Below are positions 23,926 through 64,000 of a stretch of DNA of 64,000 nucleotides, piece after piece. How positions within the stretch are numbered: position 1 is the stretch's first letter; each line of letters begins with the position of its first letter. Source of the DNA: a bacterium (GTDB lineage Bacteria > Patescibacteriota > Minisyncoccia > Phycocordibacterales > UBA6065); contig JAUXUT010000149.1 of NCBI GenBank assembly GCA_030680695.1, positions 357,000 to 420,999 on the forward strand, written 5' to 3'. The notes under the pieces were generated by a model that was given only the letters and a program-made list of their open reading frames with translations, ran no database searches and had not been told where the DNA came from. The position numbers and the translations under genes were made by a program.

Positions 23926-24054
23926 TTTGGCCGAGCCGGAGCCATATTTTTCGTCTCGAAAAATGGCGAGGCGGGGTCGCGGGTTCAGAGCGCGACGGCG
24001 CGAGGAAACCTGTGACGACCGGCTTCTCTCGTGTATACTTGGTCGATACACCCT

Positions 24055-24135
24055 GCGCGGGTGGTGAAATGGCAGACACACTTGCCTTAGGAGCAAGCGC
24101 CGCAAGGCATGGAGGTTCAAGTCCTCTCCCGCGCA
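24055..24135 (+). tRNA. tRNA-Leu (anticodon TAG), class II
   Basis: GCGCGGG acceptor pairs with CCCGCGC; anticodon stem CTTGC/GCAAG with loop CTTAGGA; long variable arm; T-arm GGAGG-TTCAAGT-CCTCT. Confidence 0.85.
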
Positions 24136-24188
24136 CAATTACCGGATTGCTTGACTTTGCGCACGTAAATTGAGATAACGTGTGTTAA

Positions 24189-50640: not shown

Positions 50641-50712
50641 TGTGACCCTACGGGGAATCGAACCCCGATTACAGCCTTGAAAAGGCCGTGTCCTAACCGT
50701 TAGACGATAGGG
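50641..50712 (-). tRNA. tRNA-Glu (anticodon TTC)
   Basis: Reverse complement gives GGCCCTA...TAGGGTC-A; anticodon stem CGGCC/GGCTG with loop TTTTCAA; T-arm CGGGG-TTCGATT-CCCCG. Confidence 0.8.
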
Positions 50713-50802
50713 CCGGATAAACTTTCCGACGGCTATCAATATAGCCCTTTTTTGCCTTTTTGGCAAAAAAGGGCTAGTATGATGCGGCTAAGACAACACC
50801 AT

Positions 50803-50889
50803 GGAGAGGTGGCAGAGTGGTCGAATGCACCAGTTTCGAAAACTGGCAGGCTCGCAAGGGTCTCGGGAGTTCGAATCTCCCCCTCTCCG
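50803..50889 (+). tRNA. tRNA-Ser (anticodon CGA), class II
   Basis: GGAGAGG acceptor pairs with CCTCTCC; anticodon stem CCAGT/ACTGG with loop TTCGAAA; long variable arm; T-arm GGGAG-TTCGAAT-CTCCC. Confidence 0.85.
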
Positions 50890-50895
50890 CAAGAC

Positions 50896-50926
50896 CAAAA
50901 AATCCATGCGAAGGCATGGATTTTTT
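50896..50926. terminator. perfect bidirectional terminator after tRNA-Ser
   Basis: AAAAAATCCATGC-gaag-GCATGGATTTTTT. Confidence 0.65.
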
Positions 50927-51119
50927 GCGTCTCTGCGGCAGAGTAAAGAGATGAGAAAGGCGGAGCGCCCGAGCGAAGCGAGGCCTCCCACATGGGAGGC
51001 TTTGTTATTCTCAAATCTTTATAAAATCTGGCGAGATGTAATTACCCCCTTATTATACACCCAAACATAGGTATTTGTCAAGCACCTCTCAGCACCACAC
51101 ATAAGGTAAGATTATTTCC

Positions 51120-51461
51120 ATGATAAAGGAACAATTCACAGGCTTTTTCCATTTCGTCCGCACACAAGGTGTGGCCGGTTTTGCAATAGGCTTCATCCTC
51201 GGTCGGGCGGTGTCGGACCTTATTGGCTCGTTCGTAAATGACATCATAAACCCTGTTATTGGTCTGGCGCTCACCCGTTTTACTGACCTCGCTTCCCTGT
51301 CTGTCTCGATCAATGGCTCGACCATCGGATATGGCAAGTTCATCTCGCTTTTCATCAACTTCCTCATCCTTGCGGCGGTCGTGTATTTCGGTATAAAAAA
51401 GCTTTCCGAGAAGTTCGATCAGCCGAAAGATGCCCCGCTTGCCCCGGGTGTGAAGAAATAG
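51120..51461 (+). CDS. mscL: large-conductance mechanosensitive channel
   Basis: MIKEQFTGFFHFVRTQGVAGFAIGFILGRAVSDLIGSFVNDIINPVIGLAL matches the MscL TM1 and periplasmic loop consensus. Confidence 0.8.
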   Translation: MIKEQFTGFFHFVRTQGVAGFAIGFILGRAVSDLIGSFVNDIINPVIGLALTRFTDLASLSVSINGSTIGYGKFISLFINFLILAAVVYFGIKKLSEKFDQPKDAPLAPGVKK

Positions 51462-51475
51462 TAAAGTGTCCTTAT

Positions 51476-51552
51476 GCGCGCTTAGCTCAGTTGGCTAGAG
51501 CATCTCATTGACGTTGAGAGGGTCGGGGGTTCAAGTCCCTCAGCGCGCACCA
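51476..51552 (+). tRNA. tRNA-Val (anticodon GAC)
   Basis: GCGCGCT acceptor pairs with AGCGCGC-A-CCA; TAGCTCAGTTGGCTAGAGC D-arm; anticodon stem TCTCA/TGAGA with loop TTGACGT. Confidence 0.85.
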
Positions 51553-51553
51553 C

Positions 51554-54220
51554 ATGGACTGGTACAAGCTTTCTCCTTCAGAAACGTTCGCCGAGCTCGG
51601 TTCAAGAGAACACGGACTTTCCGATGCCGAGGCAAGGCGAAGGCTCGCAGAAAAAGGCCCTAATTCCCTGCCCGAGGCCAAGACAGACTCCCTGATTTCA
51701 ATATTCTTACGGCAATTCGCGAGCCCTATCATATATATACTCCTGGGCGCCGCCACGATTGTCCTTCTGCTCGGTGACATCGTGGACGCCTCGATCATCG
51801 CGGCGGTGCTTTTCATAAACGCGATTGTCGGTGCAGTCCAAGAAGGCCGCGCGCAGAACACGATGGCAGCCCTGCGTCGCATGGTGCAGACAACCGCTGT
51901 TGTGCTCCGTGATGGCAAAGAAGCGATCATGCCGTCCGAACAGGTTGTCCCCGGCGACATCATCGTCCTTCGTGAAGGCGACAAAGTTCCTGCCGACGCC
52001 CGTATCGCTGAATCGAACGCCTTGAAAGCCGAGGAAGCGGCCCTAACTGGTGAATCATCGTCCGTGCTTAAAATGAGTGATTCGATCGCGGCCAACGACT
52101 TGCCTGCATCAGACCAAACAAACATGGTGTTCCGCGGAACATACATCATCGGGGGCGACGCACGAGCGGTTGTTGTTGCAACTGGCAAGGATACAGTTAT
52201 CGGTGGCATATCGCAGATGCTTGAATCGCTCGACACTGAAGTGCCTTTGAAGGCGAGCATCCGCAAGCTTTCTCATATTATCGTTGGTGTGGTTCTTTCT
52301 GTATGTGCTCTGATATTTACTATCGGAATAATGCGAGGCATACCGTTCGAAGATATGTTCGTCACCGCCGTTGCGGTCGCCGTATCGGCGACACCTGAAG
52401 GTCTGCCTGTTGTTGTGACAATTGTGCTCGCAGCAGGAATGTATCGCATGAGCCGCCAAAACGCCCTTGTAAGGAAGCTTCAGGCAGTCGAGGCGCTCGG
52501 ACAAGCGACCGTTATCGCCGTAGACAAGACAGGCACCATCACTCTCAACCAAATGGCCGTTGAAAAGCTCTGGGTATCATCAGGTATGCATGACATCGAG
52601 GCGAACGGATACAATCCCGAAGGCGGAGTTTCCATGAACGGAAATAAACTCGAACCACTCGACCATGCAGATTTGCTCGCCGCAGGAAGGATCGCGGCCT
52701 TCACGGCTGGATCTGCTATCGCATATTCCGAAGAGGAAAAAGAATGGAAACGTCTTTCTGGCGACCCTACCGAAACCGCCCTTCTCATCTTGTCGAAAAA
52801 AATCGGCTTCGAAAAATCCGTCCTTGAATCAGAACATCCGCGCGCCCTCGACATTCCGTTCAGTTCTCATACCAAATACCACGCATCTATTAATAAGACA
52901 CCTGACGGTCTCTCCTTCTCGGTGGCTGGAGCTCCGGAAGTTGTGCTCGAAAACAGTTCGACCATATGGAAAAACGGAAAATCTGTGCGCCTTACAAACG
53001 AGGACAAAAGCGCCATTGAATCGGCCTTACTCGGTATGTCGTCGCTCGGTCTGCGCGTTGTTGCTCTTGCTGTACGAATGGGTCATGAATCGGCGATCGT
53101 GCCCGATTCCCTGCCAGAACTTTGTTTCGTCGGCCTCGCCGGTATAAGTGACAGTGTACGAAGCGATGTGAACGACGCACTTAGACGCGCCCAAGAAGCT
53201 GGGGTAAAAACCGTAATGATAACCGGCGACCATCCTGAAACCGCCAGGGCCATAGCCCAAAAGGTCGGCATATGGAAAGAAGGCGACCGTGTGATAACCG
53301 GAAAAGACCTTGCAGCCTTAAACGAAGTGGAGCTTGCCCATGTCCTTGGCGAAACAAGTGTATTCGCTCGCGTCGCACCACAAGACAAGCTCAAAATAAT
53401 CGAGGCCTATCGCAAGCGCGGCGACACGATTGCGATGACGGGTGACGGAGTGAACGACGCACTATCCCTCGCCGCAGCTGACCTTGGTGTAGCCATGGGA
53501 AAAATTGGTACTGAGGTGGCCAAAGAAGCCGCAGACATCGTCCTTCTCGATGACAGTTTTGCGAGCATCGTCGCCGCGATTGAAGAAGGTCGAAACGTGT
53601 ACCGATCTATCAAGAAAGTTATACTTTATCTGTTCTCTACTTCTATCGGCGAGATACTGACCATAACTTTCGCCATGATTATTGGCTTCTCGATTCCTTT
53701 GCTTGCCACCCAGATTCTTTGGTTGAACTTCGTCACAGGTAGTTTCCTTGTCATATCGCTCGCCCTTGAACCGCGCGAAAAGAATCTTCTCATGCCATCC
53801 AAGCGCAAAACATCTCTCATTGATCGCCTTATGGTTGGAAGAATACTGCTCATCGCCCCAACTATGGCGATTGTCTCGCTTATAATGTTTGCTTCTTATA
53901 TCGAACAAGGATTTGTTGTTGCCTCGACTGTTGTGCTCTGTACCCTTGCTGTATGTCAGTGGTATCACACATTCAATTGCCGCACGGAAAGGCATTCGGT
54001 ATTTGGACGGACACTTTGGAGAAATAAATATCTCCTTGGTGCAATCGCTCTTGTTGTCGGACTTCAGATGCTTGCTGTATACGCGCCGTTCATGCAGAAA
54101 ATCCTCTACACTACACCAATTGGATTATCAGACTGGCTGATTATCGCCGGTGCGTCGCTCGCTGTGGTTCTCGTCGAAGAAATCCGCAAGGCGTTCGTCC
54201 GTCTGACCGTCAGTAAATAA
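51554..54220 (+). CDS. P-type cation-transporting ATPase (type IIA Ca2+-ATPase-like)
   Basis: DKTGTITLNQM phosphorylation site, TGDHPETARAIA, GDGVNDALSLAAADLGVAMG hinge, and 10 TM helices. The ATG is 1 nt after the tRNA-Val CCA. Confidence 0.9.
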   Translation: MDWYKLSPSETFAELGSREHGLSDAEARRRLAEKGPNSLPEAKTDSLISIFLRQFASPIIYILLGAATIVLLLGDIVDASIIAAVLFINAIVGAVQEGRAQNTMAALRRMVQTTAVVLRDGKEAIMPSEQVVPGDIIVLREGDKVPADARIAESNALKAEEAALTGESSSVLKMSDSIAANDLPASDQTNMVFRGTYIIGGDARAVVVATGKDTVIGGISQMLESLDTEVPLKASIRKLSHIIVGVVLSVCALIFTIGIMRGIPFEDMFVTAVAVAVSATPEGLPVVVTIVLAAGMYRMSRQNALVRKLQAVEALGQATVIAVDKTGTITLNQMAVEKLWVSSGMHDIEANGYNPEGGVSMNGNKLEPLDHADLLAAGRIAAFTAGSAIAYSEEEKEWKRLSGDPTETALLILSKKIGFEKSVLESEHPRALDIPFSSHTKYHASINKTPDGLSFSVAGAPEVVLENSSTIWKNGKSVRLTNEDKSAIESALLGMSSLGLRVVALAVRMGHESAIVPDSLPELCFVGLAGISDSVRSDVNDALRRAQEAGVKTVMITGDHPETARAIAQKVGIWKEGDRVITGKDLAALNEVELAHVLGETSVFARVAPQDKLKIIEAYRKRGDTIAMTGDGVNDALSLAAADLGVAMGKIGTEVAKEAADIVLLDDSFASIVAAIEEGRNVYRSIKKVILYLFSTSIGEILTITFAMIIGFSIPLLATQILWLNFVTGSFLVISLALEPREKNLLMPSKRKTSLIDRLMVGRILLIAPTMAIVSLIMFASYIEQGFVVASTVVLCTLAVCQWYHTFNCRTERHSVFGRTLWRNKYLLGAIALVVGLQMLAVYAPFMQKILYTTPIGLSDWLIIAGASLAVVLVEEIRKAFVRLTVSK

Positions 54221-54224
54221 AATT

Positions 54225-55391
54225 ATGAGAATACTCGGCATAGAAACATCCTGCGACGAGACTGCCATCAGCATCATCGACGTTGATGAGGCCGCTAATT
54301 CGGTCCGTGTCCTCGCAAACATCGTGCATACGCAAATGGATTTGCATACGCCTTATGGTGGAGTCTTTCCTATGCTTGCCAAACGTGAACACGCTAAAAA
54401 CCTCGTGCCTGTACTCAAACAAGCGCTCGATGCGGCGGCCATGCACACACCAGGCACAACCTCAATCGACCTCGCACAGACCGAGGAAATACTTAAACTC
54501 GAGCCAGAACTTTTCACGGCCTTCAAAGCGTTTGTGCCGACCATCGCAAAGCCAAACATAGACTTGATATCAGTCACTGCAGGACCGGGCCTTGAACCAG
54601 CTCTTTGGGTCGGTATTGGATTCGCTCGTGCCCTATCGCTCGCTTGGAATGTACCTGTCGTACCTGCAAACCACATGGAAGGCCATGTCCTCGCTGCGCT
54701 CATTGCACCAATCTCGGAAGGCGCATATGACCTCCTTAATCGAAGAATTCTATATCCTGCCCTTTCACTTCTCATTTCAGGGGGCCATACACAGATTGTC
54801 GTCACTGATGCAGTTGGTTCGTATCGCATCGCCGGTGACACGCGCGACGATGCGGTTGGAGAGTGTTTCGACAAGGTCGCTCGCACTCTCGGCCTCGCAT
54901 ATCCTGGCGGACCAAAAGTTTCAAAACTTGCTGCCGAGGCGCGCGCCGAAGGAATCGAATCACCTGAACCATTGCCACGACCGATGATAGATTCTCCCGA
55001 CCTAGACTTCTCATTCTCTGGCCTCAAAACCGCCGTATTGTATCTAACTAAACGCGTAACACTCGACGAACGCACAATCAAAGGCATTTGCCGTGAGGCC
55101 GAAGACGCTGTGACCGACGTACTTGTTGCCAAGGTCCGGAAAGCGATTGAAATATATGCCGTCGAAACCATGATTGTGGGCGGGGGCGTCATTGCCAACC
55201 CACACATCAGACAGGCGCTTGAACGACTCGCCGTAGATTCGACCGTAAAACTTCTCTTGCCCCATACAGACCATTCAACAGACAATGCCCTCATGATGGC
55301 TCTTGCGGGTTATTTCAATACTGACAAGGCTTTGCAACCAGGCGCAGACATAGTCGCCAAAGGCACCCTCCCTATCGGTCCACGCGCCTGA
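54225..55391 (+). CDS. tsaD: tRNA N6-adenosine threonylcarbamoyltransferase
   Basis: MRILGIETSCDETAISII...GGVFPMLAKREH matches the Kae1/TsaD metal-binding H-x-x-x-H region. Confidence 0.9.
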   Translation: MRILGIETSCDETAISIIDVDEAANSVRVLANIVHTQMDLHTPYGGVFPMLAKREHAKNLVPVLKQALDAAAMHTPGTTSIDLAQTEEILKLEPELFTAFKAFVPTIAKPNIDLISVTAGPGLEPALWVGIGFARALSLAWNVPVVPANHMEGHVLAALIAPISEGAYDLLNRRILYPALSLLISGGHTQIVVTDAVGSYRIAGDTRDDAVGECFDKVARTLGLAYPGGPKVSKLAAEARAEGIESPEPLPRPMIDSPDLDFSFSGLKTAVLYLTKRVTLDERTIKGICREAEDAVTDVLVAKVRKAIEIYAVETMIVGGGVIANPHIRQALERLAVDSTVKLLLPHTDHSTDNALMMALAGYFNTDKALQPGADIVAKGTLPIGPRA

Positions 55392-55416
55392 CCGAAACAC
55401 TCACACAAGACAAGAA

Positions 55417-55450
55417 AAGCCGCTCCTTTCGGAGCGGCTCGAGATTTTTA
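55417..55450. terminator. bidirectional terminator between tsaD and the 55465-55875 gene
   Basis: AGCCGCTCCtttcGGAGCGGCT followed by cgagaTTTTTA. Confidence 0.55.
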
Positions 55451-55464
55451 TGACCACCCACGAC

Positions 55465-55875
55465 TCATGCGCACTTTCTGTGCTCAGCCATAATCAATGA
55501 CCGAGACTTCTCAATGGAACGGATCACTGACTCGACGATCCGACCGTTGTCCATGTGCTCGAGGATGACGACTACCGCGATGAAGCGGTTGTATCTCCTC
55601 CGAGACTGTTTAAACCTGAACCTCCGAGCAAAATGTTCTGAACTTTTCACCTGAAGGAACACTTTGCCAAGATCATGGGTTTCGATAACATAATCAATTC
55701 CTTTATGATCCTGATCCGGGGTGGCCGGATACACAGTATGGAACCACTCAGGGAGCTTGTTCTGTCGCTCCATAAGGGCATCGAGAACTCGCACCTCCGT
55801 TTCTCTCCCTTTGCGCACGACCGCTTCGTGGCCCACGAGGCTAAACAGCCTCGATGTTCTGGTGAGGGCTTTCAT
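55465..55875 (-). CDS. hypothetical protein with a possible PD-(D/E)xK nuclease-like core
   Basis: GIDYVIETHDLGKVFLQVKSS fits a D...(E/Q)xK spacing. The assignment is weak. Confidence 0.25.
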   Translation of the reverse strand: MKALTRTSRLFSLVGHEAVVRKGRETEVRVLDALMERQNKLPEWFHTVYPATPDQDHKGIDYVIETHDLGKVFLQVKSSEHFARRFRFKQSRRRYNRFIAVVVILEHMDNGRIVESVIRSIEKSRSLIMAEHRKCA

Positions 55876-55956
55876 GGGGCTTCCCTTGCATTAAACATAA
55901 AAACGGTGAAAAAATCAATCGTTTCTGATATCATGAGCGAACCTATCTAATCGCCA

Positions 55957-58167
55957 ATGGAACCAAAGAAACCGCCATCCCAGCAACCATATCCGCCTGC
56001 AAACATCCCTGCGAAGTTCCTCAAACCATATGACCCAGCCTCGACGGAGGACGGCATATATAAGGCTTGGATTGATTCTGGATATTTCAACCCAGACAAT
56101 CTCCCTGCCCGTCACAAGGAGCCGTTCTCCATCGTGCTCCCACCTCCGAACGTGACGGGTATCCTTCATATGGGTTCAGCATTCATGATCGCCATCGAAG
56201 ACATCATGGTGCGATATAAACGTATGCGCGGATTCAAGACACTTTGGATTCCTGGAACGGATCATGCCGCCATTGCCACACAATCAAAAGTTGAGGGGGA
56301 TATATACAAAAAAGAAGGTAAGCGCCGCCAGGACCTCGGGCGCGAAGAACTGGTCCGCCGCATCGAAGCCTTCGCCAAAGAAAGCCACGACTCCATCGTG
56401 AATCAAATCCGCAAGGTCGGCGCATCAGTTGATTGGTCGCGTGAAGCGTACACCCTCGACGAGAAACGCTCGCTCGCTGTGCGAACCGTGTTCAAGATGA
56501 TGAATGACGAAGGCCTTATATACCGCGGCTATCGCGTTGTGAACTGGGACCCGAAAGGTCAGACGACCATATCAGACGACGAAATCGTATACACCGAGGG
56601 CAAGGGCAAGCTATACACCTTTAAATATTCAAAGGACTTCCCTATCTCTATCGCAACCACAAGACCAGAAACCAAAGTTGGCGACACTGGCGTTGCCGTG
56701 CATCCTGATGATCCCAGATATCAGCAATACATTGGCAAGGAATTCGATATCGAATTCGCGGGCGAGAAAATCCATATCAAAGTCGTTGGGGACAATGAAG
56801 TAAATCCGGAATTCGGCACAGGTGCGGTCGGAGTCACTCCAGCCCACAGTCACGTTGATTATGAAATTTCCCAACGTCATGGCTTGCCAATTGTTCCGGT
56901 CATAAACGAGTACGCCAAAATGAGCGTCACAGGCCCAATGCTCGCCGGCAAGAAAACAACCGACGCGCGCGAGACAGTTGTGGCTTGGCTCAAAGACCAG
57001 GGCCTTCTTGAAAAAGAAGAGGAAATCCCTCAAAACATGTCCACTGCCGAACGAACCGGCGGCATCGTTGAACCGTTGCCGAAACTACAATGGTTCGTGA
57101 ACGTGAATAAGAAAATACCTTCGCGAGGCAATCGATCCTTAAAGGAACTCATGCTCGACGCTGTGACGAAGGACGGTATCAAAATCATCCCGGAAAATTT
57201 CGAACGTGTGTATATGCATTGGATATCGAATCTCCGCGACTGGTGCATATCGCGCCAGATTTGGTTCGGTCATCGTGTGCCTGTTTGGTATCGCACAGAC
57301 GCGTCAGGAAAAGATGAATTGTATTGCGGCGTCACACCCCCATCCGGCGAAGGTTGGACACAAGATGAAGACACCCTCGACACCTGGTTCTCTTCGGGCC
57401 TTTGGACATTCTCTACTCTTGGTTGGCCTGAAGAAACCGCCGATTTCAAAACCTTCCACCCTACAGCTGTACTCGAAACGGGGTATGATATCCTGCCGTT
57501 CTGGGTCGCGCGAATGATACTTATGTCGCAATACGTGCTCGGTACTGTTCCATTTAAAACCGTCTATTTCCACGGCATCGTACGTGACGAGAAGGGCCGT
57601 AAAATTTCAAAGTCGCTAGGTAACAACATTGATCCAGTGGACATGGCTATGAAATATGGTGCCGATGCTGTACGCATGGGCCTCATTGTTGGCACAGGTC
57701 CCGGTTCAGATTCGAAAATCAGCGAAAACAAGATAAAAGGCTACAAGAACTTCGCGAACAAAATCTGGAACATCACCCGATTCGTCCTTTCTTCGACTGA
57801 AGGTGTTTCTCTCGACCGTGGCTTCACAGAATGGTCTGCGGACGACGCAAAAATTATGTCTAACTTCTCTGCCCTGCTCGTCGAAGTGACAAAAGAAATG
57901 GACGAATTCAAATATCACATTGTTGCCGAGAAACTATACGGATATGTATGGCGCGAATTCGCCGATGTCATACTCGAAGCATCAAAAAAAGTGCTCGCCG
58001 AAGGAAGCGATGCGGATAAAATATCCCGAAAACAACTCCTCCTCCACATCCTTGAAAAATCCCTACGCGCCCTTCATCCTTTCGCGCCTTTCGTAACCGA
58101 GGAAATATGGAAAGATATGCCGATAGCGGACAAAAAACCCCTCATTATCGAGGAATGGCCACGGTAA
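55957..58167 (+). CDS. valS: valyl-tRNA synthetase (compact form lacking the C-terminal coiled coil)
   Basis: PPPNVTGILHMGSAFMIAIEDIMVRYKRMRGFKTLWIPGTDHAAIATQ HIGH region and KISKSLGN KMSKS motif. Confidence 0.85.
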   Translation: MEPKKPPSQQPYPPANIPAKFLKPYDPASTEDGIYKAWIDSGYFNPDNLPARHKEPFSIVLPPPNVTGILHMGSAFMIAIEDIMVRYKRMRGFKTLWIPGTDHAAIATQSKVEGDIYKKEGKRRQDLGREELVRRIEAFAKESHDSIVNQIRKVGASVDWSREAYTLDEKRSLAVRTVFKMMNDEGLIYRGYRVVNWDPKGQTTISDDEIVYTEGKGKLYTFKYSKDFPISIATTRPETKVGDTGVAVHPDDPRYQQYIGKEFDIEFAGEKIHIKVVGDNEVNPEFGTGAVGVTPAHSHVDYEISQRHGLPIVPVINEYAKMSVTGPMLAGKKTTDARETVVAWLKDQGLLEKEEEIPQNMSTAERTGGIVEPLPKLQWFVNVNKKIPSRGNRSLKELMLDAVTKDGIKIIPENFERVYMHWISNLRDWCISRQIWFGHRVPVWYRTDASGKDELYCGVTPPSGEGWTQDEDTLDTWFSSGLWTFSTLGWPEETADFKTFHPTAVLETGYDILPFWVARMILMSQYVLGTVPFKTVYFHGIVRDEKGRKISKSLGNNIDPVDMAMKYGADAVRMGLIVGTGPGSDSKISENKIKGYKNFANKIWNITRFVLSSTEGVSLDRGFTEWSADDAKIMSNFSALLVEVTKEMDEFKYHIVAEKLYGYVWREFADVILEASKKVLAEGSDADKISRKQLLLHILEKSLRALHPFAPFVTEEIWKDMPIADKKPLIIEEWPR

Positions 58168-58189
58168 AGGTGCGGTAGAATAGATACGT

Positions 58190-58897
58190 ATGCTCGAAAG
58201 CATCCCTATGTCGTCCGCTCTCTTTTATTCTCTCATCGGAGGTATCCTTCCTGCCCTTTTCTGGCTCTGGTTTTGGACGCGGGAAGACAAACTCCATCCG
58301 GAGCCGCGATCCCGTCTCCTTCTCACCTTCATCGCCGGTATGATTGCTGTGCCACTCGTGTACTTTCCACAGCGTTGGACTTATGAATATTTTGGCACAA
58401 TAAACACGTCGCTTCTCCTCGCCTGGGCGGTCATCGAGGAACTAGCAAAATATATCGTCGTAGGTTTCGCAGCACTGCGCAGTCGAGATTATGACGAACC
58501 GATTGATGCCATGACATACCTCATCACTGGCGCCCTCGGTTTTGCGGCTCTCGAAAACACACTTTTTATCCTCAATCCGTTCCTTGCGGGCGAAACGATG
58601 CAAACAATATTCGCCCAAGGCAATATGCGTTTTATTGGGGCATCACTCCTGCATGTTGTCACTGCTGCGGTGCTCGGATACTGTATAGGTCGCGAGTTTT
58701 ATAGGCCTACGATTGAAAAGAATCTCTGGCGTATATTCGGCCTCTCTCTCGCCATCGCATTGCACACTCTCTTCAACGTGTTTATAATATACGGGAACGG
58801 AAGCAAGACTTTTCTCGTCTTCTCGTGCGTATGGATTGCTGGGATTATAGTCCTACTTCTATTCGAGAAAATAAAACAGATAAAAGCCAACAACTAA
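58190..58897 (+). CDS. prsW: PrsW-family intramembrane metalloprotease
   Basis: EELAKY (EExxK), FAALENTLF (FxxxE) and HTLFN motifs within a multi-TM scaffold. Confidence 0.65.
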   Translation: MLESIPMSSALFYSLIGGILPALFWLWFWTREDKLHPEPRSRLLLTFIAGMIAVPLVYFPQRWTYEYFGTINTSLLLAWAVIEELAKYIVVGFAALRSRDYDEPIDAMTYLITGALGFAALENTLFILNPFLAGETMQTIFAQGNMRFIGASLLHVVTAAVLGYCIGREFYRPTIEKNLWRIFGLSLAIALHTLFNVFIIYGNGSKTFLVFSCVWIAGIIVLLLFEKIKQIKANN

Positions 58898-58898
58898 C

Positions 58899-59348
58899 AT
58901 GCAACCAGCGAAAAAATCGTTCTTCGAGCGTCTCACCGGCAATGGCAGGGTCGAGGACGAGATGATTGATGGCGAGGAATCAGATTCTCGCGCCAACATA
59001 CTCGAAGAGTCTGAAACAGACGGTCAACTCACCGTGGATGTATACCAAACTCCTAATGAAATCGTCATCAGGACGATGGTTGCTGGTGTAAAACCAGAAG
59101 ATCTCGACATAAACATCACCCGCGACATGGTTTCTATACGAGGCAGCCGCGAAGAATCGACAGAATCCCACAACCAGGATTATTTCCATCGCGAACTTTA
59201 CTGGGGCTCATTCTCAAGGACCATCATGCTCCCCGAGGAAATCGAGGTTGAGGAAGCAGAGGCCGTCGAGAGACATGGACTCCTCACCATCAAGCTTCCA
59301 AAAATAGACAAGTCCAAGCAAAATAAGCTCCGCGTAAAGTCGGTATAG
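58899..59348 (+). CDS. Hsp20/alpha-crystallin family small heat-shock protein
   Basis: LTVDVYQTPNEIVIRTMVAGVKPEDLDINITRDMVSIRGSRE...GLLTIKLPK matches the alpha-crystallin domain. Confidence 0.8.
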   Translation: MQPAKKSFFERLTGNGRVEDEMIDGEESDSRANILEESETDGQLTVDVYQTPNEIVIRTMVAGVKPEDLDINITRDMVSIRGSREESTESHNQDYFHRELYWGSFSRTIMLPEEIEVEEAEAVERHGLLTIKLPKIDKSKQNKLRVKSV

Positions 59349-59373
59349 GCGCCACAAGGCCCCCTAGACGCAA

Positions 59374-59406
59374 GAAATCGCCCTATACGGGGCGATTTCT
59401 TGTTTT
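59374..59406 (+). terminator. terminator after the Hsp20 gene
   Basis: AGAAATCGCCCtatacGGGGCGATTTCT followed by TGTTTT. Confidence 0.6.
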
Positions 59407-59481
59407 GGTGCTTGGACCCAGGTTCGAACTGGGGACCCCTTCCTCTTCAGGGAAGTGCTCTACCAACTGAGCTATCCAAGC
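59407..59481 (-). tRNA. tRNA-Phe (anticodon GAA)
   Basis: Reverse complement gives GCTTGGA-TAGCTCAGTTGGTAGAGC...CTTCC-CTGAAGA-GGAAG...TTCGAAC...TCCAAGC-A-CCA. Confidence 0.85.
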
Positions 59482-59542
59482 AATCCTGGCCCACCGTGGG
59501 CCCGTATAATGTAAGCTTTTTTGAGCCAAATCGCAAGCAGAA

Positions 59543-59764
59543 CTATGTGGTGCCAAATACAGCCTCTTCCAAGGAACCAACGCGGTTGTCGTCAATCCGA
59601 TTTGAAAGTGCATTGAAACGATAGTCGATCTTTTGATCGAGACCGTCGATTTTTTTATCCAACCTCCCGATTTCGGTTCTCAGCTCATGGCGCATGACGT
59701 CTTTAACCTCTTCGAGGCCCCGCATCGTCATTTCAGCCAGCTTGTCGATAGTAATCTTCCCCAT
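59543..59764 (-). CDS. small coiled-coil protein (hypothetical; possible paralog of 43718-43999)
   Basis: EIGRLDKKIDGLDQKIDYRFNALSNRIDD heptad pattern and no TM. Confidence 0.3.
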   Translation of the reverse strand: MGKITIDKLAEMTMRGLEEVKDVMRHELRTEIGRLDKKIDGLDQKIDYRFNALSNRIDDNRVGSLEEAVFGTT

Positions 59765-59831
59765 GCCGTCATCTTAACACAGCAACAATCTCCGTAGAGA
59801 GTGGAACGATATCCACACTTTTAGATTTTAT

Positions 59832-60050
59832 TTAGATCGAAAGGATCTGACTGTACGCGTCCTTCGCGGTATCCACATATGGCTGTAGGAAATACAAGGC
59901 CCCTAGCGAAAGACCGATAATAAATAACCAGTAAACGGCCGTCATGATGTTCGCTATGCGGCGGGAGCGTTTGAGCATCTTGAGATCGCGCGAGTTGGAG
60001 GCGGTCGCTTCGCGTATTTCTACTAACATCTGGTGTTCTTCTGGTGTCAT
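59832..60050 (-). CDS. small single-TM protein (holin-like topology; hypothetical)
   Basis: 72 aa; charged N-terminus, then one TM (IMTAVYWLFIIGLSLGALYFL), immediately downstream of the giant S74 protein. Confidence 0.25.
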   Translation of the reverse strand: MTPEEHQMLVEIREATASNSRDLKMLKRSRRIANIMTAVYWLFIIGLSLGALYFLQPYVDTAKDAYSQILSI

Positions 60051-60069
60051 GAGTCTATGATATCACGGC

Positions 60070-63000
60070 TTACCCGGTCGCCTCTTCTTCTAGCACCGGC
60101 TCTGGTTCTTGTGCCTCATCATTGTCGTAATTTACGAGTGAAACCGTCTTCGCTGATACACCGTTCCAATTGATATCCACGCTCGACGATACTCCAACTA
60201 TGACCGTGTACGAGACGGGTCCATCAATCTCGGAGTCATCGACACCGGTAATCGTTATCGTCTGATAGACATTCCAGTTCGACGGTGTAAACGTAATTGT
60301 TGAATGCGATAACTCGCCCTCAGTCGGATCAGATATCGTTATCGGGAACGTGACGTCGGCAAGAGGGGCGGAATCTAGTACAACCGTGAACGATGCGGCG
60401 CCGCCCCCCTCGCTTGTCGATAATTCTGGTGCGTGGGTAATGGTGTACTTACCTGTGGCTGTCGAAACCGGCGATTCATCGACGTTGTTATTCCCGGCAT
60501 TAGACTGAGGCTCTGGATTGCCAGAAGGCGCAACTGTGCCGCCACAGACACCGGACTCGCTCTTCATTGCACCGTTCTCGACGAACATACAAACTGGCTC
60601 CCCTGTCGCGCGGTCAAATATGGTGATACCTGATGCCGCAAGGTTATTCGTATCGCCAACTGTAAGGCTTTTTGTCTGGATGAAGTCTGCAACAATTGCC
60701 ACAAATCTGACATACGCGTTCTCGATCGTCGCGCCTAACGATGAGAACCAACCAGAGACAATGGACGTAACGGTCGAGGTTGAGGTCTGACCCATGGTTG
60801 AGCCGCTTGCTAACAGCGACTCGATGGAGTCAAGCCTGCTTTCCGTGAGCGAAAGGCGTGCTGTCGTAGACGCGAGCGAGATATCTAACTCTTTCACCGC
60901 ATTTACGATTGATGCTAGTATTGGCCTTTCAGCGAGCGACAGATATCCTTGCGAATTAGTAAATACAGCTTCAGGTATGAATTCCCCGATGTTCTGCGCA
61001 GAGAATCCGGCATATACGTTGAACGTTTCTAGACCCGACGTCCCATTCCATCGGTACAGGATTGGGGTTATACCGCGGATATCAGCGAGGCCACGTCCAA
61101 ACGAGCCTGTTATGTCCTTGAGCCTTTCATCGGACGACGCTGTGACGTTTCCAAGCGTATCTGTCACGAGGTTTCCGCCCGCACTACCGAGTGCTTCGAA
61201 ACGAACAGTACCGGTGTTCGTAAGCTGAGCCGATGGTGAGGTGGTACCGATGCCCACGTTCCCTCCGCTTGTCACAACGAACCGCGACGATGTCGCAAGA
61301 GCTGTGACACTCGAGACGCGAAACAGGTCCGACGTTGCGTTATTGAGTCCGACTAGGTCGAGGCGTGCGGCCGGGGTCGTCGACCCGATGCCGACCGAGC
61401 CCGATCGCATGGTTACGATCTGCTCTCCTGCCGCGTAAAACGTGAGGAGGTTCTGGATAGCGCCTATGTCAGAGCCGAACTGTATGCCCCTATCAGAACC
61501 GACGACCTTCACGTCAATGACAGGCCTGTCTGTGCCGCCCTGATATGTAGAAAGAGTGAATGGGTTGTTGGAACTGAACCTATTAGTTATGGTCGTGCGA
61601 TATATGTCACTTGCAGAAAGGCGTATATCCGTTTGGGCGTTCTGTCGATATGCCTCAATCGTGGTACCAGGAGTCGTAGTACCAATACCGACATTACCCT
61701 CATTCGTGATCCTGAGCCTTTCGACTATAGAAGCTCCTGTCCCTCCAGAGTTTGTGAAGAAAGTGAGACCAGACTGAAAGTTACCTGTGTTTTCACGAAC
61801 ACCAGCTATCCTCGCGCCAATCGAGTCAGAACCGAAGAAGTCGAAATCTATAGCAGCAGAAGTACCAACTGCACCGCCTTCATTTTTGAGTTTAACTCCA
61901 GCAATAGTATTACCAGAACTTGAACTATAGACCTCAAGTTTTCTCGTAGCACTTACCGTGCCGATACCAACATTTCCATTATCCAACACGGTCACTCGTG
62001 GGGTATTTGCAGAGTCAGCAAGCTGTAAAAGATTTCCTGTGCCGGTGCCAGAACCTGTGACAGAAAGCTTCGCAGAAGGAGATGTTGTACCGATGCCGAC
62101 GTTTCCATTATCAAGCACCGTGAACCTTTCAACATTAGCCGAATTCGCAACTGTGAATGCTCTACCCGTGCCGGTGCCGGAACCTGTGACAGAAAGCTTC
62201 GCAGAAGGAGATGTTGTACCGATGCCGAAGTTGCCCGTAGGAGATACCGCGAAACTGTACGCGCCCGCAACATCATCAAAGAGACCAATCCCACCCGCAA
62301 GCGTTCCGGCGGAATCGCTCGCTATAATACGCCATGAGCGACCGCCCGTTCCGGTGTTAAGGAGGCCTAAAGAGAGATTTCCCTGGGCGGCAAGCTGCGC
62401 CGATCCAGAGATGGTCAATGAGAAGCCAGGGGTTGTTGTACCAATTCCGACGTTACCTGCGGCGGTAATCCTCATCTTTTCTGAAGCGGTAACTCCTGAA
62501 GATGTATAAAATGCCATCACAGAACCGTACCCACCTCCGGAATAGACTCCGAGCGCCTTGAGGTTGATCACCGATGTACCAACACCCCCCGGATTTGTAT
62601 AAGAACCATCAACTCCGAAACCACTACCGTAGTTCGAGTTCAAAGATGGCGTATTCACCATGAGAGACGATCCAGCAGTGCCCACTGCTCCAACAGTAAG
62701 CTGACCGGTTGTAAGAGTACTACCCCCAACACCCCAAGAAAGGCTTGAAGAACCCGTAAAGGAAACTGTACCGGTAGCCGTGAGATTCGCTACTGAAAGA
62801 TTACCAGAAAAGAGTCCATCACCCTGAACCGAAAACTTTTGTGAAGGTGTAGTTGTGCCGATTCCGACGTTTCCATTATCAAGCACAGTGAACCTTTCCG
62901 TGTTCGCCGAATTCGCAACTGTGAATGCCCTACCTGTGCCGGTGCCAGAACCTGTGACCGCAAGACGTGCTACTGGCGATGTTGTGCCTATTCCAACGGC

Positions 63001-64000
63001 CGTAGTGGTATAACGAACCAACTCGGTGCCACCCACATAAAATGATATCGGTCTGCCTGAATTGTCTCCTTCAAAATATGACCCCACAGAGTCGGCTCCA
63101 AGCCTGAAGAAACTTCCAGGCGTACTAGCACTGTGAAAAGCTCCGACACCGACAACATCAAGTGCCCGTGATGGTGTAGTTGTGCCGATACCCACATTCC
63201 CCGACGCCGTCACAGTAAACCTGGTTGAACCACTTGTTTCTAAATGCAAATCATTTGCATCATTCGTGCCCAGTATTGCAGCAGCCCCGAATGAATTGCC
63301 GTTGTGTTGGAAGAACGACGCACCGAAACCAAGAGATGATGTGGCAATCGACGTAACATTACCACTCTGGCCGAAGAGGACGCCTGAAAGGGATCCGACC
63401 GAAAGACCTGATGTGGTGGTGGTTCCAGTTGCGGTCATGTCCACTGATGTGAGATTGCCCGTGAAGTATCCATTACCCTCGACAGAGAGGCGCTCTGAAG
63501 GAGACGTGGTACCGATGCCGACGTTGCCTGTGGAAGTAATACGCATCGCCTCGGATGCTCCCGTGTAGAAACTAAGGAGTGCGGCCCCTACACCCGAAGC
63601 GGTCCTCGACTGAATAAAGCTTCCAGTGGCATCGACTCCGAAATCAAGTTGATTGACAGAGTTCACCACTTTCACATTTGTGTCGTCGGCTGTATCGCGC
63701 GCAACAACAAGTCTCTGTGTTGGAGATGTGGTGCCGATACCGATGTTGCCATCAGCAGTCACTGTGACACGCGCGATACCATTCGTCTCGAAGTTTAGGT
63801 CGAACGCATCGTTTGTTCCAATCGTCGTGGTGGTTCCGAACGAGTTACCGTCGTTCATGAATGCATCGCCGACGATTGCTGCAACCGATGTTGTACCGAC
63901 ATCACCATTAGCAGCGACAAGTATTCCAGTGAGTCCACCGAGAGTGAGCGAACCTTGCACCGATATATTGCCGCCGACAGATGCGTTATCTGCGATAGAT
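60070..64000 (-). CDS. giant beta-helical repeat protein (over 1300 aa, N-terminus beyond the window) with a peptidase-S74 intramolecular-chaperone domain and a C-terminal extension
   Basis: Dozens of GN(V/I)GIGTT(S/T)PS and TGSGTGTG repeats. SSDERLKDITGS...GFSAQNIGEFIPEAV matches the S74 (endosialidase chaperone) SDxRLK motif. The frame stays open to the window edge. The track's M is actually a GTG codon. Confidence 0.7.
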   Translation of the reverse strand, partial: SIADNASVGGNISVQGSLTLGGLTGILVAANGDVGTTSVAAIVGDAFMNDGNSFGTTTTIGTNDAFDLNFETNGIARVTVTADGNIGIGTTSPTQRLVVARDTADDTNVKVVNSVNQLDFGVDATGSFIQSRTASGVGAALLSFYTGASEAMRITSTGNVGIGTTSPSERLSVEGNGYFTGNLTSVDMTATGTTTTSGLSVGSLSGVLFGQSGNVTSIATSSLGFGASFFQHNGNSFGAAAILGTNDANDLHLETSGSTRFTVTASGNVGIGTTTPSRALDVVGVGAFHSASTPGSFFRLGADSVGSYFEGDNSGRPISFYVGGTELVRYTTTAVGIGTTSPVARLAVTGSGTGTGRAFTVANSANTERFTVLDNGNVGIGTTTPSQKFSVQGDGLFSGNLSVANLTATGTVSFTGSSSLSWGVGGSTLTTGQLTVGAVGTAGSSLMVNTPSLNSNYGSGFGVDGSYTNPGGVGTSVINLKALGVYSGGGYGSVMAFYTSSGVTASEKMRITAAGNVGIGTTTPGFSLTISGSAQLAAQGNLSLGLLNTGTGGRSWRIIASDSAGTLAGGIGLFDDVAGAYSFAVSPTGNFGIGTTSPSAKLSVTGSGTGTGRAFTVANSANVERFTVLDNGNVGIGTTSPSAKLSVTGSGTGTGNLLQLADSANTPRVTVLDNGNVGIGTVSATRKLEVYSSSSGNTIAGVKLKNEGGAVGTSAAIDFDFFGSDSIGARIAGVRENTGNFQSGLTFFTNSGGTGASIVERLRITNEGNVGIGTTTPGTTIEAYRQNAQTDIRLSASDIYRTTITNRFSSNNPFTLSTYQGGTDRPVIDVKVVGSDRGIQFGSDIGAIQNLLTFYAAGEQIVTMRSGSVGIGSTTPAARLDLVGLNNATSDLFRVSSVTALATSSRFVVTSGGNVGIGTTSPSAQLTNTGTVRFEALGSAGGNLVTDTLGNVTASSDERLKDITGSFGRGLADIRGITPILYRWNGTSGLETFNVYAGFSAQNIGEFIPEAVFTNSQGYLSLAERPILASIVNAVKELDISLASTTARLSLTESRLDSIESLLASGSTMGQTSTSTVTSIVSGWFSSLGATIENAYVRFVAIVADFIQTKSLTVGDTNNLAASGITIFDRATGEPVCMFVENGAMKSESGVCGGTVAPSGNPEPQSNAGNNNVDESPVSTATGKYTITHAPELSTSEGGGAASFTVVLDSAPLADVTFPITISDPTEGELSHSTITFTPSNWNVYQTITITGVDDSEIDGPVSYTVIVGVSSSVDINWNGVSAKTVSLVNYDNDEAQEPEPVLEEEATG

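What the first reader, a model, noticed from the sequence alone, without database searches (positions are those of the whole stretch)
59407..64000. Giant repetitive S74-domain surface or tail-fibre-like protein with near-identical internal DNA repeats, followed by a holin-like protein and a coiled-coil protein next to tRNA-Phe
The protein runs off the window and has dozens of GNVGIGTTSPS beta-helix repeats. It carries a peptidase-S74 intramolecular-chaperone motif (SSDERLKDITGS), but about 230 aa follow it, whereas S74 domains are normally C-terminal and self-cleaving. The DNA contains ~60-110-nt near-identical direct repeats (for example 62037-62100 versus 62168-62231, and 62091-62200 versus 62862-62975), which implies ongoing recombination or variation. 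A 72-aa single-TM protein and a 73-aa coiled-coil protein lie immediately downstream, and the module abuts tRNA-Phe. This resembles a phage tail-fibre and lysis remnant integrated at a tRNA. It could equally be a host-attachment fibre of an episymbiont.
Basis: partly seen in the sequence, partly recalled or inferred. Interest (0 to 1): 0.55.

Follow-up and report, generated by a model that had tools for sequence, protein, structure and literature searches.

The report
Membrane-anchored tail-fibre-like surface protein
This is a chromosomal gene of an ultra-small (Patescibacteria/CPR) bacterium for a 1708-residue, membrane-anchored surface fibre built from phage-tail-fibre parts, not a leftover prophage, and its small neighbours and the tRNA are just ordinary conserved flanking genes.

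Summary
The sequence features are mostly real. The open frame does leave the window; the full protein is MDP1625231.1 (1708 aa). It has a threshold-level Peptidase_S74 hit with an intact Ser-Lys dyad, near-identical internal DNA repeats, two small downstream ORFs and tRNA-Phe. Only about 11 GNVGIGTT cores exist, not dozens.

The prophage-remnant reading fails.
- The protein starts with a Xis/HTH_17-like domain and one transmembrane helix, so it is cell-anchored.
- Orthologues of 2878 aa and about 4300 aa sit in the same slot in three related Paceibacteria genomes. The slot is TlyA-like methyltransferase | fibre | 72-aa protein | tRNA-Phe | HSP20 | PrsW | ValRS.
- No phage genes, integrase or tRNA-fragment repeat were found there.
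- More distant relatives keep 72-aa protein–tRNA-Phe–HSP20 without any fibre. The "holin" and the tRNA are therefore ancestral neighbours.
- The 73-aa ORF belongs to a dispersed small-protein family.

The long tail after S74 (353 aa, against 92–132 aa in most viral homologues) is real. It is typical of cellular Patescibacteria homologues and consists of a two-cysteine mini-domain, a linker and an Ig/Calx-β-like sandwich.

Most likely this is a self-assembling trimeric surface or adhesion fibre. That function is inferred, not shown.

The parts
60070..64000 (-). C-terminal 1309 codons (residues 400-1708) plus the stop of the giant fibre gene. The full product is MDP1625231.1, 1708 aa. The first 399 residues (Xis/HTH_17-like domain, transmembrane helix 137-159, Ala/Pro-rich stalk) lie beyond the window.
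61135..63750 (-). Fibre shaft. It has 11 GN[VIF]GIGTT core motifs spaced 43-139 aa apart and is homologous to phage tail-fibre PHROGs (phrog_9942 E 4e-45; phrog_18345 E 2e-34).
61899..62285 (-). Three tandem 129-nt (43-aa) units. Copies 62039-62098 and 62168-62227 are 59/60 identical, which points to recent duplication or gene conversion. A Logan assembly of the same genome breaks here, at 62080.
62796..62994 (-). Dispersed copy of the same unit. 62858-62957 is 90/100 identical to 62090-62189.
60808..61134 (-). [quoted passage not shown] It holds the Ser1355-Lys1360 dyad, a beta 'donut' and a 41-residue helix. The Pfam match alone covers 60964-61134.
60544..60732 (-). Post-ICA mini-domain, residues 1489-1551, of beta hairpins. 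It holds both cysteines found in the window-encoded part (residues 400-1708): C1536 and C1551. The motif GITIFD..TG.PVC..V.NG......G.C recurs in cellular Patescibacteria homologues and is absent from the viral ones examined.
60127..60447 (-). C-terminal Ig-like beta-sandwich, residues 1584-1690. Pfam Calx-beta is sub-threshold (E 0.042). The fold matches MSP/PapD-like and NCX Calx-beta CBD1 domains. An acidic tail follows.
59832..60050 (-). 72-aa single-transmembrane protein (MDP1625230.1), 19 nt downstream of the fibre stop. It is a conserved neighbour of tRNA-Phe/HSP20 in relatives with and without the fibre, and is not part of a lysis cassette.
59543..59764 (-). 73-aa charged, probably helical protein (MDP1625229.1). 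It is absent at this position in L005. Paralogue-like ORFs lie elsewhere in related genomes. Function unknown.
59406..59481 (-). tRNA-Phe(GAA), intact and on the same strand as the fibre, which lies on its 5' side. Its position is ancestral (p72-tRNA-Phe-HSP20 is conserved). No duplicated fragment was found.
55957..59348 (+). Conserved housekeeping flank that fixes the chromosomal position: ValRS (55957-58167), PrsW protease (58190-58897) and HSP20 (58899-59348).

Best explanation
This is a vertically inherited chromosomal gene of a Paceibacteria (Patescibacteria/CPR) bacterium. It encodes a type-II membrane-anchored giant fibre.

Shown by sequence, homology or predicted structure: residues 5-72 form a Xis/HTH_17-like winged helix. 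Residues 137-159 form a single transmembrane helix, with net positive charge on the N-terminal side. About 1550 residues follow: a shaft of phage-tail-fibre-type GNVGIGTT units, an S74/ICA domain with an intact Ser1355-Lys1360 dyad and a long helix, a two-cysteine mini-domain, a disordered linker and an Ig/Calx-beta-like sandwich.

Inferred mechanism: the transmembrane helix acts as a signal anchor, leaving the HTH domain in the cytoplasm. Outside the cell, three chains are zipped together from the C-terminal end by the ICA coiled coil, as in endosialidase and T5 tail fibres. The ICA trimer then probably cuts before Ser1355. That would shed, or leave non-covalently attached, a 354-residue C-terminal piece and leave a stable trimeric fibre rooted in the membrane.

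The most likely role is adhesion to a host cell or to surface polysaccharide. Shaft length and the distal tail evolve quickly through repeat duplication and recombination.

The 72-aa membrane protein, the 73-aa ORF and tRNA-Phe are unrelated flanking genes.
For: Identity and full length: (100% match, 1708 aa, 649-kb contig).

Anchor: HTH_17 hit at E 0.0035, with relatives reaching 38 bits against a cut-off of 27. The AF2 model has pLDDT 94-98 for residues 5-72 and a helix at 133-154. The best PDB fold match is phage Pukovnik Xis, with TM 0.74 and rmsd 1.1 A. Hydropathy supports the transmembrane segment.

Fibre shaft: PHROG tail-fibre families at E 4e-45 and 2e-34, and weak cyanophage tail-fibre tblastn hits.

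S74/ICA domain: Pfam at or above the cut-off. A PDB profile search aligns SDERLK with 8jov 'SASDERLK' and also matches MyRF ICA and 6f45. Foldseek matches MyRF ICA 7dc3 and many viral ICA proteins. The dyad spacing equals S911/K916 of endoNF and S587/K592 of MyRF (PMC8326128). Ser and Lys are invariant in close homologues.

Cellular origin and vertical inheritance: the same slot is occupied in L003, L005 and L006/L027. The same HTH-TM N-terminus is present in the L003 and L027 orthologues. In the genome contigs survey 17 of 80 loci with this N-terminal module are giant or contig-truncated ORFs (16 of them with at least one GNVGIGT-like core), in several Patescibacteria lineages; in the separate protein-representatives search, P0240 and P0277 combine the module with S74. 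The N-terminal module is absent from IMG/VR. GC content is unremarkable.

Fast evolution: ValRS is 75-81% identical, against 56% for the fibre C-terminus and 29-30% for its N-terminus. Orthologue lengths are 1708, 2878 and about 4300 aa.
Against: No experiment or expression data exist, so surface exposure, trimerisation, cleavage and adhesion are all inferred.

The S74 Pfam score is only just above threshold.

The upstream flank of this particular genome could not be retrieved, so upstream context rests on two orthologous loci.

If cleavage occurs, the conserved Cys mini-domain and the Ig-like domain would be lost from the fibre. That is odd for an adhesin tip. They may stay bound, or cleavage may be regulated.

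Why a DNA-binding-type fold sits on the cytoplasmic end is unexplained.

AF2 was run on a monomer, and residues 160-215 and 250-275 of the C-terminal model are low confidence.
Confidence: 0.7

Rival explanations
1. Prophage remnant. The gene is a phage tail fibre, the 72-aa protein is a holin, and the element integrated at tRNA-Phe.
For: The shaft and S74 domain are homologous to phage tail-fibre families. IMG/VR contigs carry S74 domains 46-57% identical to this one. The small single-transmembrane ORF follows directly. PGAP names the protein 'tail fiber domain-containing protein'.
Against: The N-terminal HTH plus transmembrane anchor is present and is absent from IMG/VR. Syntenic orthologues occur in three genomes, flanked by TlyA-like, TypA, TruB and HSP20/PrsW/ValRS genes, with no phage gene. 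p72-tRNA-Phe-HSP20 is conserved in genomes without the fibre. No tRNA-Phe fragment of 12-14 nt or more occurs in the window or in the 10 kb upstream of the orthologue. The gene lies 5' of the tRNA. There is no PHROG or Pfam hit for p72 and no endolysin. Base composition is uniform.
Confidence: 0.03
2. Membrane-tethered regulator or contact sensor. The Xis/HTH_17-like domain is the business end, and the giant extracellular fibre senses contact or cleavage state and controls DNA binding. The topology resembles ToxR/CadC, with a conceptual parallel to MYRF.
For: The topology is a cytoplasmic N-terminal winged-helix HTH, one transmembrane helix and an extracytoplasmic domain. The HTH module is highly conserved (Y25, D28, Y29, G31, Q32, L33, R35, W48) across 4177 cluster representatives. 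MYRF shows that an ICA domain can be coupled to a membrane-bound transcription factor (PMC3742440, PMC8326128).
Against: Domain order differs from MYRF. Here the transmembrane helix lies between the HTH and the ICA domain, so ICA cleavage cannot release the HTH. DNA binding is untested. Most family members are about 320-aa proteins with two HTH copies and no fibre, so the module may simply be a cytoplasmic anchoring or interaction domain. The Foldseek E-value for Xis is weak (0.06).
Confidence: 0.1
3. Structural envelope component, such as a spacer, surface-layer spike or cell-cell tether, rather than a specific adhesin. Alternatively, the fibre of a domesticated phage-tail-like particle (eCIS or tailocin).
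For: It is long, repetitive and membrane-rooted, and cellular homologues with signal peptides are abundant in many bacteria. eCIS systems use tail-fibre proteins (PMC12923769 listed).
Against: For eCIS or tailocin: no sheath, tube or baseplate genes lie in the 10 kb on either side in orthologues, and a transmembrane anchor is incompatible with a released particle. For a purely structural role: the very fast divergence, the variable length and the swappable distal tail (Ig-like here, Pro/Thr/Glu-rich in L003 and L027, DUF5011 or a C-terminal transmembrane helix elsewhere) look more like an interaction surface. None of this is decisive.
Confidence: 0.15

Closest known systems
Phage tail fibres and tailspikes with a C-terminal intramolecular chaperone (Peptidase_S74/ICA): K1F endosialidase endoNF, T5 L-shaped tail fibre pb1, GA-1 gp12, and cyanophage fibres annotated 'chaperone of endosialidase'
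   Same: It has a repetitive fibre shaft homologous to phage tail-fibre PHROGs. It has an S74 domain with a Ser-x4-Lys dyad followed by a long helix. The expected mechanism is the same: C-terminal trimerisation, then self-cleavage (PMC8326128).
   Different: The gene is chromosomal and syntenic, with no phage neighbours. It has an N-terminal Xis-like domain and a transmembrane anchor. 353 residues follow the cleavage Ser, against 92-132 (one case of 190) in the closest IMG/VR homologues. The added Cys mini-domain and Ig-like domain are not matched by any BFVD model (TMq at most 0.27).
Cellular 'tail fiber domain-containing' or 'beta strand repeat-containing' S74 proteins of Patescibacteria and other bacteria (e.g. 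Nomurabacteria P0004, Methylocystis P0011/P0012)
   Same: They share GNVGIGTT shaft units, an internal S74 domain followed by 190-356 further residues, and often the same GITIYD..TG.PYC..G.C mini-domain. They are secreted or anchored. The family has thousands of members.
   Different: Most start with an ordinary signal peptide or signal anchor. This one and a subset (L003, L027, L019-L021, L037, P0240, P0277) start with the HTH_17-like cytoplasmic module. The Calx-beta-like terminal domain is shared only with a few (P0003, P0121).
MYRF (myelin regulatory factor), the eukaryotic membrane-bound transcription factor with an ICA domain
   Same: It is the best-known protein in which the S74/ICA domain is internal rather than C-terminal and is combined with a DNA-binding-type domain and one transmembrane helix. 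The fold matches 7dc3, and the dyad spacing is the same.
   Different: The order is DBD-ICA-TM in MYRF, so cleavage frees the DBD. Here it is HTH-TM-fibre-ICA, so cleavage would free only the extracellular tail. There is no sequence relationship outside the ICA domain.
Excisionase/Xis-BldC (HTH_17, MerR-like) winged-helix domains
   Same: The predicted beta-beta-alpha-alpha-beta-beta-alpha fold of residues 5-72 superposes on mycobacteriophage Pukovnik Xis (rmsd 1.1 A over 47 residues), and on RdfS and BldC. Family relatives pass the Pfam HTH_17 cut-off.
   Different: This copy scores below the Pfam cut-off (18 against 27 bits). It is fused to a transmembrane helix and a giant exoprotein. No recombinase partner or DNA target is known.

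Membership tests
[quoted passage not shown] | Match to Pfam PF13884 at or above the gathering score | tested here: met
   22.4 bits on the window ORF and 24.5 bits on the C-terminal 400 aa, against a cut-off of 22. This is marginal, but a profile of close homologues also hits PDB S74 proteins 8jov, 7dc3 and 6f45.
[quoted passage not shown] | Catalytic Ser-Lys dyad, five residues apart, at the start of the domain | tested here: met
   S1355-D-E-R-L-K1360. It aligns with 'SDERLK' of 8jov. The spacing matches S911/K916 (endoNF) and S587/K592 (MyRF) in PMC8326128. It is invariant in 8 close homologues.
[quoted passage not shown] | ICA fold: a beta 'donut' followed by a long helix that forms the trimeric coiled coil | tested here: met
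   In the AF2 model, residues 51-160 have pLDDT 86-97 and a helix spans 118-158. Foldseek hits MyRF ICA 7dc3 (E 2e-4) and many viral ICA proteins. This is a monomer prediction only.
[quoted passage not shown] | The domain is the C-terminal end of the protein (phage type) | tested here: not met
   353 residues follow the Ser here. In 14 of the 15 IMG/VR homologues where the motif was located, 92-132 residues follow (190 in the other one). About 245 residues are extra.
[quoted passage not shown] | Trimer-dependent self-cleavage actually occurs | not testable with these tools
   This needs expression of wild type against S1355A/K1360A mutants.
Integrated prophage or phage remnant at a tRNA | Neighbouring phage structural, lysis or integrase genes | tested here: not met
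   The downstream flank in the window is HSP20, PrsW, ValRS, TsaD, a P-type ATPase and MscL. Upstream in orthologues lie a TlyA-like gene, TypA, an RRM protein, TruB, Bcp and DsbA. The upstream flank of this genome itself is not available.
Integrated prophage or phage remnant at a tRNA | Direct repeat of the tRNA 3' part (att) bounding the element, with the element lying 3' of the tRNA | tested here: not met
   No tRNA-Phe fragment of 14 nt or more occurs elsewhere in the window. None of 12 nt or more occurs in L027, which covers the 10 kb upstream of the orthologue and about 11 kb of the orthologue itself. The fibre lies on the 5' side of the tRNA. The tRNA position is ancestral.
Holin (for the 72-aa ORF) | Small membrane protein encoded next to an endolysin in a phage lysis cassette | tested here: not met
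   It has one transmembrane segment, but there is no endolysin and no Pfam, PHROG or NCBIfam hit. Only 13 other sequences match, all in a narrow lineage. It sits next to tRNA-Phe/HSP20 in genomes without fibre or phage genes.
HTH_17 / excisionase-like winged helix (N-terminal domain) | Pfam PF12728 match at or above the gathering score, and a Xis-like fold | tested here: inconclusive
   This protein scores 18 bits against a cut-off of 27. Relatives P0208 and P0212 score 38 bits. The AF2 fold best matches Xis 4j2n (TM 0.74, rmsd 1.1 A), but with Foldseek E 0.06.
MYRF-type membrane-bound transcription factor | [quoted passage not shown] | tested here: not met
   The order here is HTH (5-72), TM (137-159), fibre, ICA (1355-1463).

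The most novel reading that the evidence does not exclude
The fibre is more than an adhesin. It would be a one-polypeptide contact sensor in which a giant, self-processing, tail-fibre-like trimer outside the cell is wired through a single transmembrane helix to a trimerised Xis/HTH_17-like domain inside. Host contact, or ICA cleavage state, would then control DNA binding or a cytoplasmic partner. The same cytoplasmic module occurs in about 4000 mostly small Patescibacteria protein clusters, so it would define a CPR-specific membrane-signalling family.
Probability: 0.1. Interest if true: 0.8.

Novelty: new variant of a known kind. Interest (0 to 1): 0.4.

Why it matters
How Patescibacteria other than Saccharibacteria recognise and hold on to their hosts is largely unknown. 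The literature found here discusses pili (PMC7906910, PMC12206443). The five full-text searches that included Patescibacteria/CPR terms turned up no paper linking Patescibacteria to S74 tail-fibre-like proteins.

This locus gives a concrete, fast-evolving, membrane-rooted candidate attachment fibre. It has a clear and testable biochemical prediction: self-cleavage at Ser1355.

It also shows that phage receptor-binding hardware has been adopted as a stable cellular gene. In the process it gained features the closest viral versions examined lack: a cytoplasmic HTH plus transmembrane anchor, and a post-chaperone Cys domain and Ig domain.

Practically, it is a caution for annotation. 'Tail fiber domain-containing protein' next to a tRNA is not evidence of a prophage in these genomes. 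Such genes also break short-read assemblies.

Tried and rejected
(1) Retrieving this genome's own upstream flank failed. An exact look-up of P0001 and of the 72-aa protein found nothing. The HSP20 and 73-aa look-ups found only an 11.4-kb Logan contig that ends inside the repeat. The genome-contig scan with P0001 found nothing. An exact 48-mer scan of metagenome contigs found nothing. Orthologous loci were used instead.

(2) Aligning 60 or 120 full-length homologues failed because of size and an internal error. 20 were used.

(3) NCBIfam gave only a spurious EutS hit. A single-sequence PDB search gave nothing relevant. A profile search was needed.

It was repeated with an 8-sequence S74 alignment.

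(5) The afdb50 fold library was unavailable.

(6) A polymorphic-toxin reading (a variable C-terminus after a processing domain) was considered and dropped. The variable tails are Ig-like or low-complexity, with no toxin or immunity genes.

(7) An eCIS or tailocin fibre was considered and dropped. There are no sheath, tube or baseplate genes, and a transmembrane anchor is present.

(8) A promoter and terminator scan of 59300-60200 gave nothing informative.

(9) TRF found no regular tandem array. The repeats are irregularly spaced units.

Full report
WHAT IS IN THE WINDOW

On the minus strand an open frame runs from the stop codon at 60070 to the window edge, with no upstream stop. It matches at 100% identity a 1708-aa protein. 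NCBI holds that protein as MDP1625231.1, 'MAG: tail fiber domain-containing protein [bacterium]', on a 649-kb contig. The window carries residues 400-1708.

Downstream on the same strand lie three features. A 72-aa ORF sits at 59832-60050, only 19 nt after the stop. A 73-aa ORF sits at 59543-59764. tRNA-Phe(GAA) sits at 59406-59481. On the other strand come HSP20, a PrsW protease and ValRS. GC content is flat across the region.

CHECKING THE OBSERVATION

The Pfam Peptidase_S74 hit is real but marginal. It scores 22.4 bits against a cut-off of 22 on the window ORF and 24.5 bits on the C-terminal 400 aa. The motif is S1355-D-E-R-L-K1360.

The DNA repeats are real. With a shift of 129 nt, 62039-62098 and 62168-62227 are 59/60 identical, including a 49-nt exact run. 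With a shift of 768 nt, 62090-62189 and 62858-62957 are 90/100 identical. The period of 129 nt is one 43-aa unit, GN.GIGTTSPSAKLSVTGSGTGTG...SAN..R.TVLDN. Across the whole unit, identity falls to 71%. That pattern fits a recent partial duplication or gene conversion.

'Dozens' of repeats is an overstatement. There are 11 strict GN[VIF]GIG cores, irregularly spaced at 43-139 aa, and TRF reports no tandem array.

A Logan assembly of the same genome (SRR13727517) is identical to window 50641-62080 and stops inside the repeat. This shows an assembly problem, not strain variation.

THE N-TERMINUS CHANGES THE PICTURE

The 399 residues outside the window begin with a domain that hits Pfam HTH_17 weakly (E 0.0035, 18 bits). 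A single hydrophobic helix follows at residues 137-159.

With an alignment of relatives, AF2 models residues 5-72 at pLDDT 94-98 as a beta-beta-alpha-alpha-beta-beta-alpha winged helix, and residues 133-154 as a helix. The best PDB fold matches are mycobacteriophage Pukovnik Xis (TM 0.74, rmsd 1.1 A), RdfS excisionase and BldC, though at weak E-values. Some relatives pass the HTH_17 cut-off at 38 bits.

The flank before the transmembrane helix carries a net positive charge and the flank after it does not (read directly from the sequence). With no signal peptide, this predicts an N-in, C-out topology. The protein is therefore rooted in the cell membrane with about 1550 residues outside. A virion tail fibre would not be built this way.

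The module is common in Patescibacteria. A search of 1.84 billion cluster representatives gave 4177 hits at E up to 1e-3. Most are proteins of about 320 aa with two tandem copies of the module. A scan of GTDB species genomes gave 136 relatives, and every listed one that carries a taxon name is Patescibacteria/CPR. In that survey, 17 of 80 loci were giant or contig-truncated ORFs; 16 of the 17 contain at least one GNVGIGT-like core (5-24 in the larger ones). In the separate protein-representatives search, the giant proteins P0240 and P0277 combine this module with an S74 domain. None was found in IMG/VR.

SYNTENY ARGUES AGAINST A PROPHAGE

Three related genomes carry an orthologue in the same slot.
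- L005 (Candidatus Paceibacterota, GCA_041661645.1) has fibre, then a p72 homologue (46% identical), then tRNA-Phe, then HSP20-PrsW-ValRS-TsaD.
- L006/L027 (494-kb contig) has a 2878-aa fibre with the same HTH-TM start. It is followed by a 180-aa protein, a Laminin_G_3 protein, p72 (62% identical), tRNA-Phe and HSP20-PrsW-ValRS.
- L003 (GCA_002838085.1) has the same arrangement. Its gene is interrupted by four assembly gaps and is about 4300 codons long.

Upstream of the orthologue in L027 lie a TlyA-like methyltransferase, TypA/BipA, an RRM protein, TruB, an exonuclease, Bcp and DsbA. There is no phage gene or integrase. The TlyA-like gene is also directly upstream in L003.

No tRNA-Phe fragment of 12 nt or more occurs in L027. 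None of 14 nt or more occurs elsewhere in the window. The fibre lies on the 5' side of the tRNA, whereas tRNA-targeted elements normally lie 3' of it (established knowledge).

More distant relatives (L008, L009, L010) keep p72-homologue, tRNA-Phe, HSP20 and PrsW but have OMP decarboxylase or glutaredoxin genes where the fibre would be. The 72-aa protein and the tRNA are therefore ancestral neighbours of HSP20, not parts of a fibre or lysis module.

The 72-aa protein has only 13 relatives, all in this lineage. It has no family hit and no endolysin partner.

The 73-aa ORF is missing at this position in L005. Similar ORFs occur elsewhere in L027 and, weakly, at about 43.7-44.0 kb in the window.

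THE C-TERMINAL REGION

An AF2 model of residues 1306-1708 has mean pLDDT 74. It gives the following parts.
- A confident ICA domain at residues 1355-1463, with pLDDT 86-97 and a 41-residue helix.
- A less certain helix-hairpin region.
- A beta mini-domain at about 1489-1551. It holds both cysteines found in the window-encoded part (residues 400-1708), C1536 and C1551.
- A disordered linker.
- A confident Ig-like sandwich at 1584-1690.

Foldseek against the PDB matches the sandwich to MSP/PapD-like and NCX Calx-beta domains, and matches the ICA part to MyRF ICA 7dc3. Pfam Calx-beta is sub-threshold at E 0.042.

A profile of close S74 homologues hits three PDB entries: tail-fibre protein 8jov (which aligns 'SASDERLK'), MyRF ICA, and a long tail-fibre distal subunit, 6f45. 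PMC8326128 reports that S587/K592 of MyRF correspond to S911/K916 of endoNF, that this dyad is indispensable for cleavage, and that the C-terminal coiled coil drives trimerisation. The spacing here is the same.

IS THE POST-S74 TAIL UNUSUAL?

It is unusual relative to viruses. IMG/VR holds at least 439 relatives of this S74 subtype. In the 20 best loci examined (40-57% identical), the motif was located in 15. In 14 of those, the ORF ends 92-132 aa after the Ser, and in the other, 190 aa after. None has the Cys motif, and they have 0-1 GNVGIGT cores. BFVD fold hits cover only one domain (TMq at most 0.27).

It is not unusual relative to cellular homologues. In 20 top hits, 188-356 aa follow the Ser in 12 of the 14 proteins where the motif was located (96 aa in the other two). 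Many of these proteins start with a signal peptide or anchor, and several share the GITIYD..TG.PYC...G.C mini-domain.

The distal tail is swappable. It is Ig/Calx-like here and in P0003 and P0121. It is Pro/Thr/Glu-rich in L003 and L027. Elsewhere it is DUF5011 or even a C-terminal transmembrane helix.

MECHANISM

Shown by sequence, homology or predicted structure: the domain order, the membrane anchor, the intact dyad, the ICA fold, homology of the shaft to phage tail-fibre families (phrog_9942 at E 4e-45 and phrog_18345 at E 2e-34; weak cyanophage hits), and the conserved chromosomal position.

Inferred: Sec-dependent export with the transmembrane helix as signal anchor; trimerisation from the C-terminus by the ICA coiled coil; self-cleavage before Ser1355, shedding or loosely retaining a 354-residue fragment; and a stable trimeric fibre used for attachment.

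Fast change supports an interaction surface. ValRS is 75-81% identical between these genomes, HSP20 72% and PrsW 58-62%. The fibre C-terminus is 56% identical and its N-terminus 29-30%. Orthologue lengths are 1708, 2878 and about 4300 aa.

WHAT REMAINS OPEN

- This genome's own upstream flank.
- Whether cleavage happens, and whether the Cys and Ig domains stay attached afterwards.
- What a Xis-like fold does on the cytoplasmic end.
- What the fibre binds.

COMPARISON AND NOVELTY

The parts are known: the S74/ICA domain, phage-type fibre repeats, an Ig-like domain and an HTH_17-like fold. NCBI already labels the protein a tail-fibre-domain protein.

What I did not find described is the combination. 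The four full-text searches that included Patescibacteria/CPR terms found no paper treating it (a fifth search, concerned MYRF/ICA only). The combination is a cytoplasmic HTH, a transmembrane anchor, a giant tail-fibre shaft, an internal ICA domain and a post-chaperone extension, held as a stable syntenic cellular gene family in Patescibacteria.

I rate it a new variant of a known kind, of moderate interest.

Noticed in passing
window 59543-59764 (-); L027 8527-8799 (-) and ~1431-1676 (-); window ~43727-43969 (-): The 73-aa ORF belongs to a small family of charged, probably helical proteins found in several copies at unrelated places in these genomes. At this site it looks like a roughly 300-nt insertion between p72 and tRNA-Phe, because L005 has only 25 nt there. 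It has a weak hit to phrog_2990 (E 0.0017).
   Followed up: partly
outside the window (residues 1-75 of MDP1625231.1); loci L012-L091: The Xis/HTH_17-like N-terminal module is very common in Patescibacteria, with 4177 cluster representatives. It occurs mostly as proteins of about 320 aa with two tandem copies. Its function is unknown, and it is absent from IMG/VR.
   Followed up: partly
L003 14514-17133; L006 7224-9981; L007 2496-5253: Orthologous loci carry two extra genes between the fibre and p72: a 180-aa protein with an N-terminal transmembrane segment, and a 690-737-aa Laminin_G_3 protein. Both are missing in the window and in L005. They may be accessory surface proteins.
   Followed up: no
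window 62080; L005 position 1; L003 8057-9957: Short-read assemblies break or gap inside this gene. The Logan contig ends in the 129-nt repeat, the L005 contig ends in the gene, and L003 has four N runs. Lengths and repeat counts in MAGs should therefore be treated with caution.
   Followed up: yes
L092-L113 (IMG/VR contigs): Predicted viral contigs carry S74 domains up to 57% identical to this one, but in the classical C-terminal position on much shorter ORFs (about 200-1030 aa). They may be phages of related hosts. The direction of transfer between cell and virus is unresolved.
   Followed up: partly
L006 10329-10402: tRNA-Phe is inverted relative to p72 and the fibre in this orthologous locus. 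It is co-directional in the window, L005, L008 and L010.
   Followed up: no
L004 (Nomurabacteria, P0004 locus): A more distant S74 fibre homologue (1734 aa, with a signal peptide) sits among an S24 peptidase, a ParE/RelB toxin-antitoxin pair, DUF285, GH18 and a Y-family polymerase. The neighbourhood is variable and island-like, but has no phage structural genes.
   Followed up: no
window 23584-24136 and 50642-51552: There are two tRNA clusters: Cys, Leu, Lys, Leu and Glu, Ser, Val. The second cluster is conserved next to MscL/TsaD in L005, L006 and L010.
   Followed up: no
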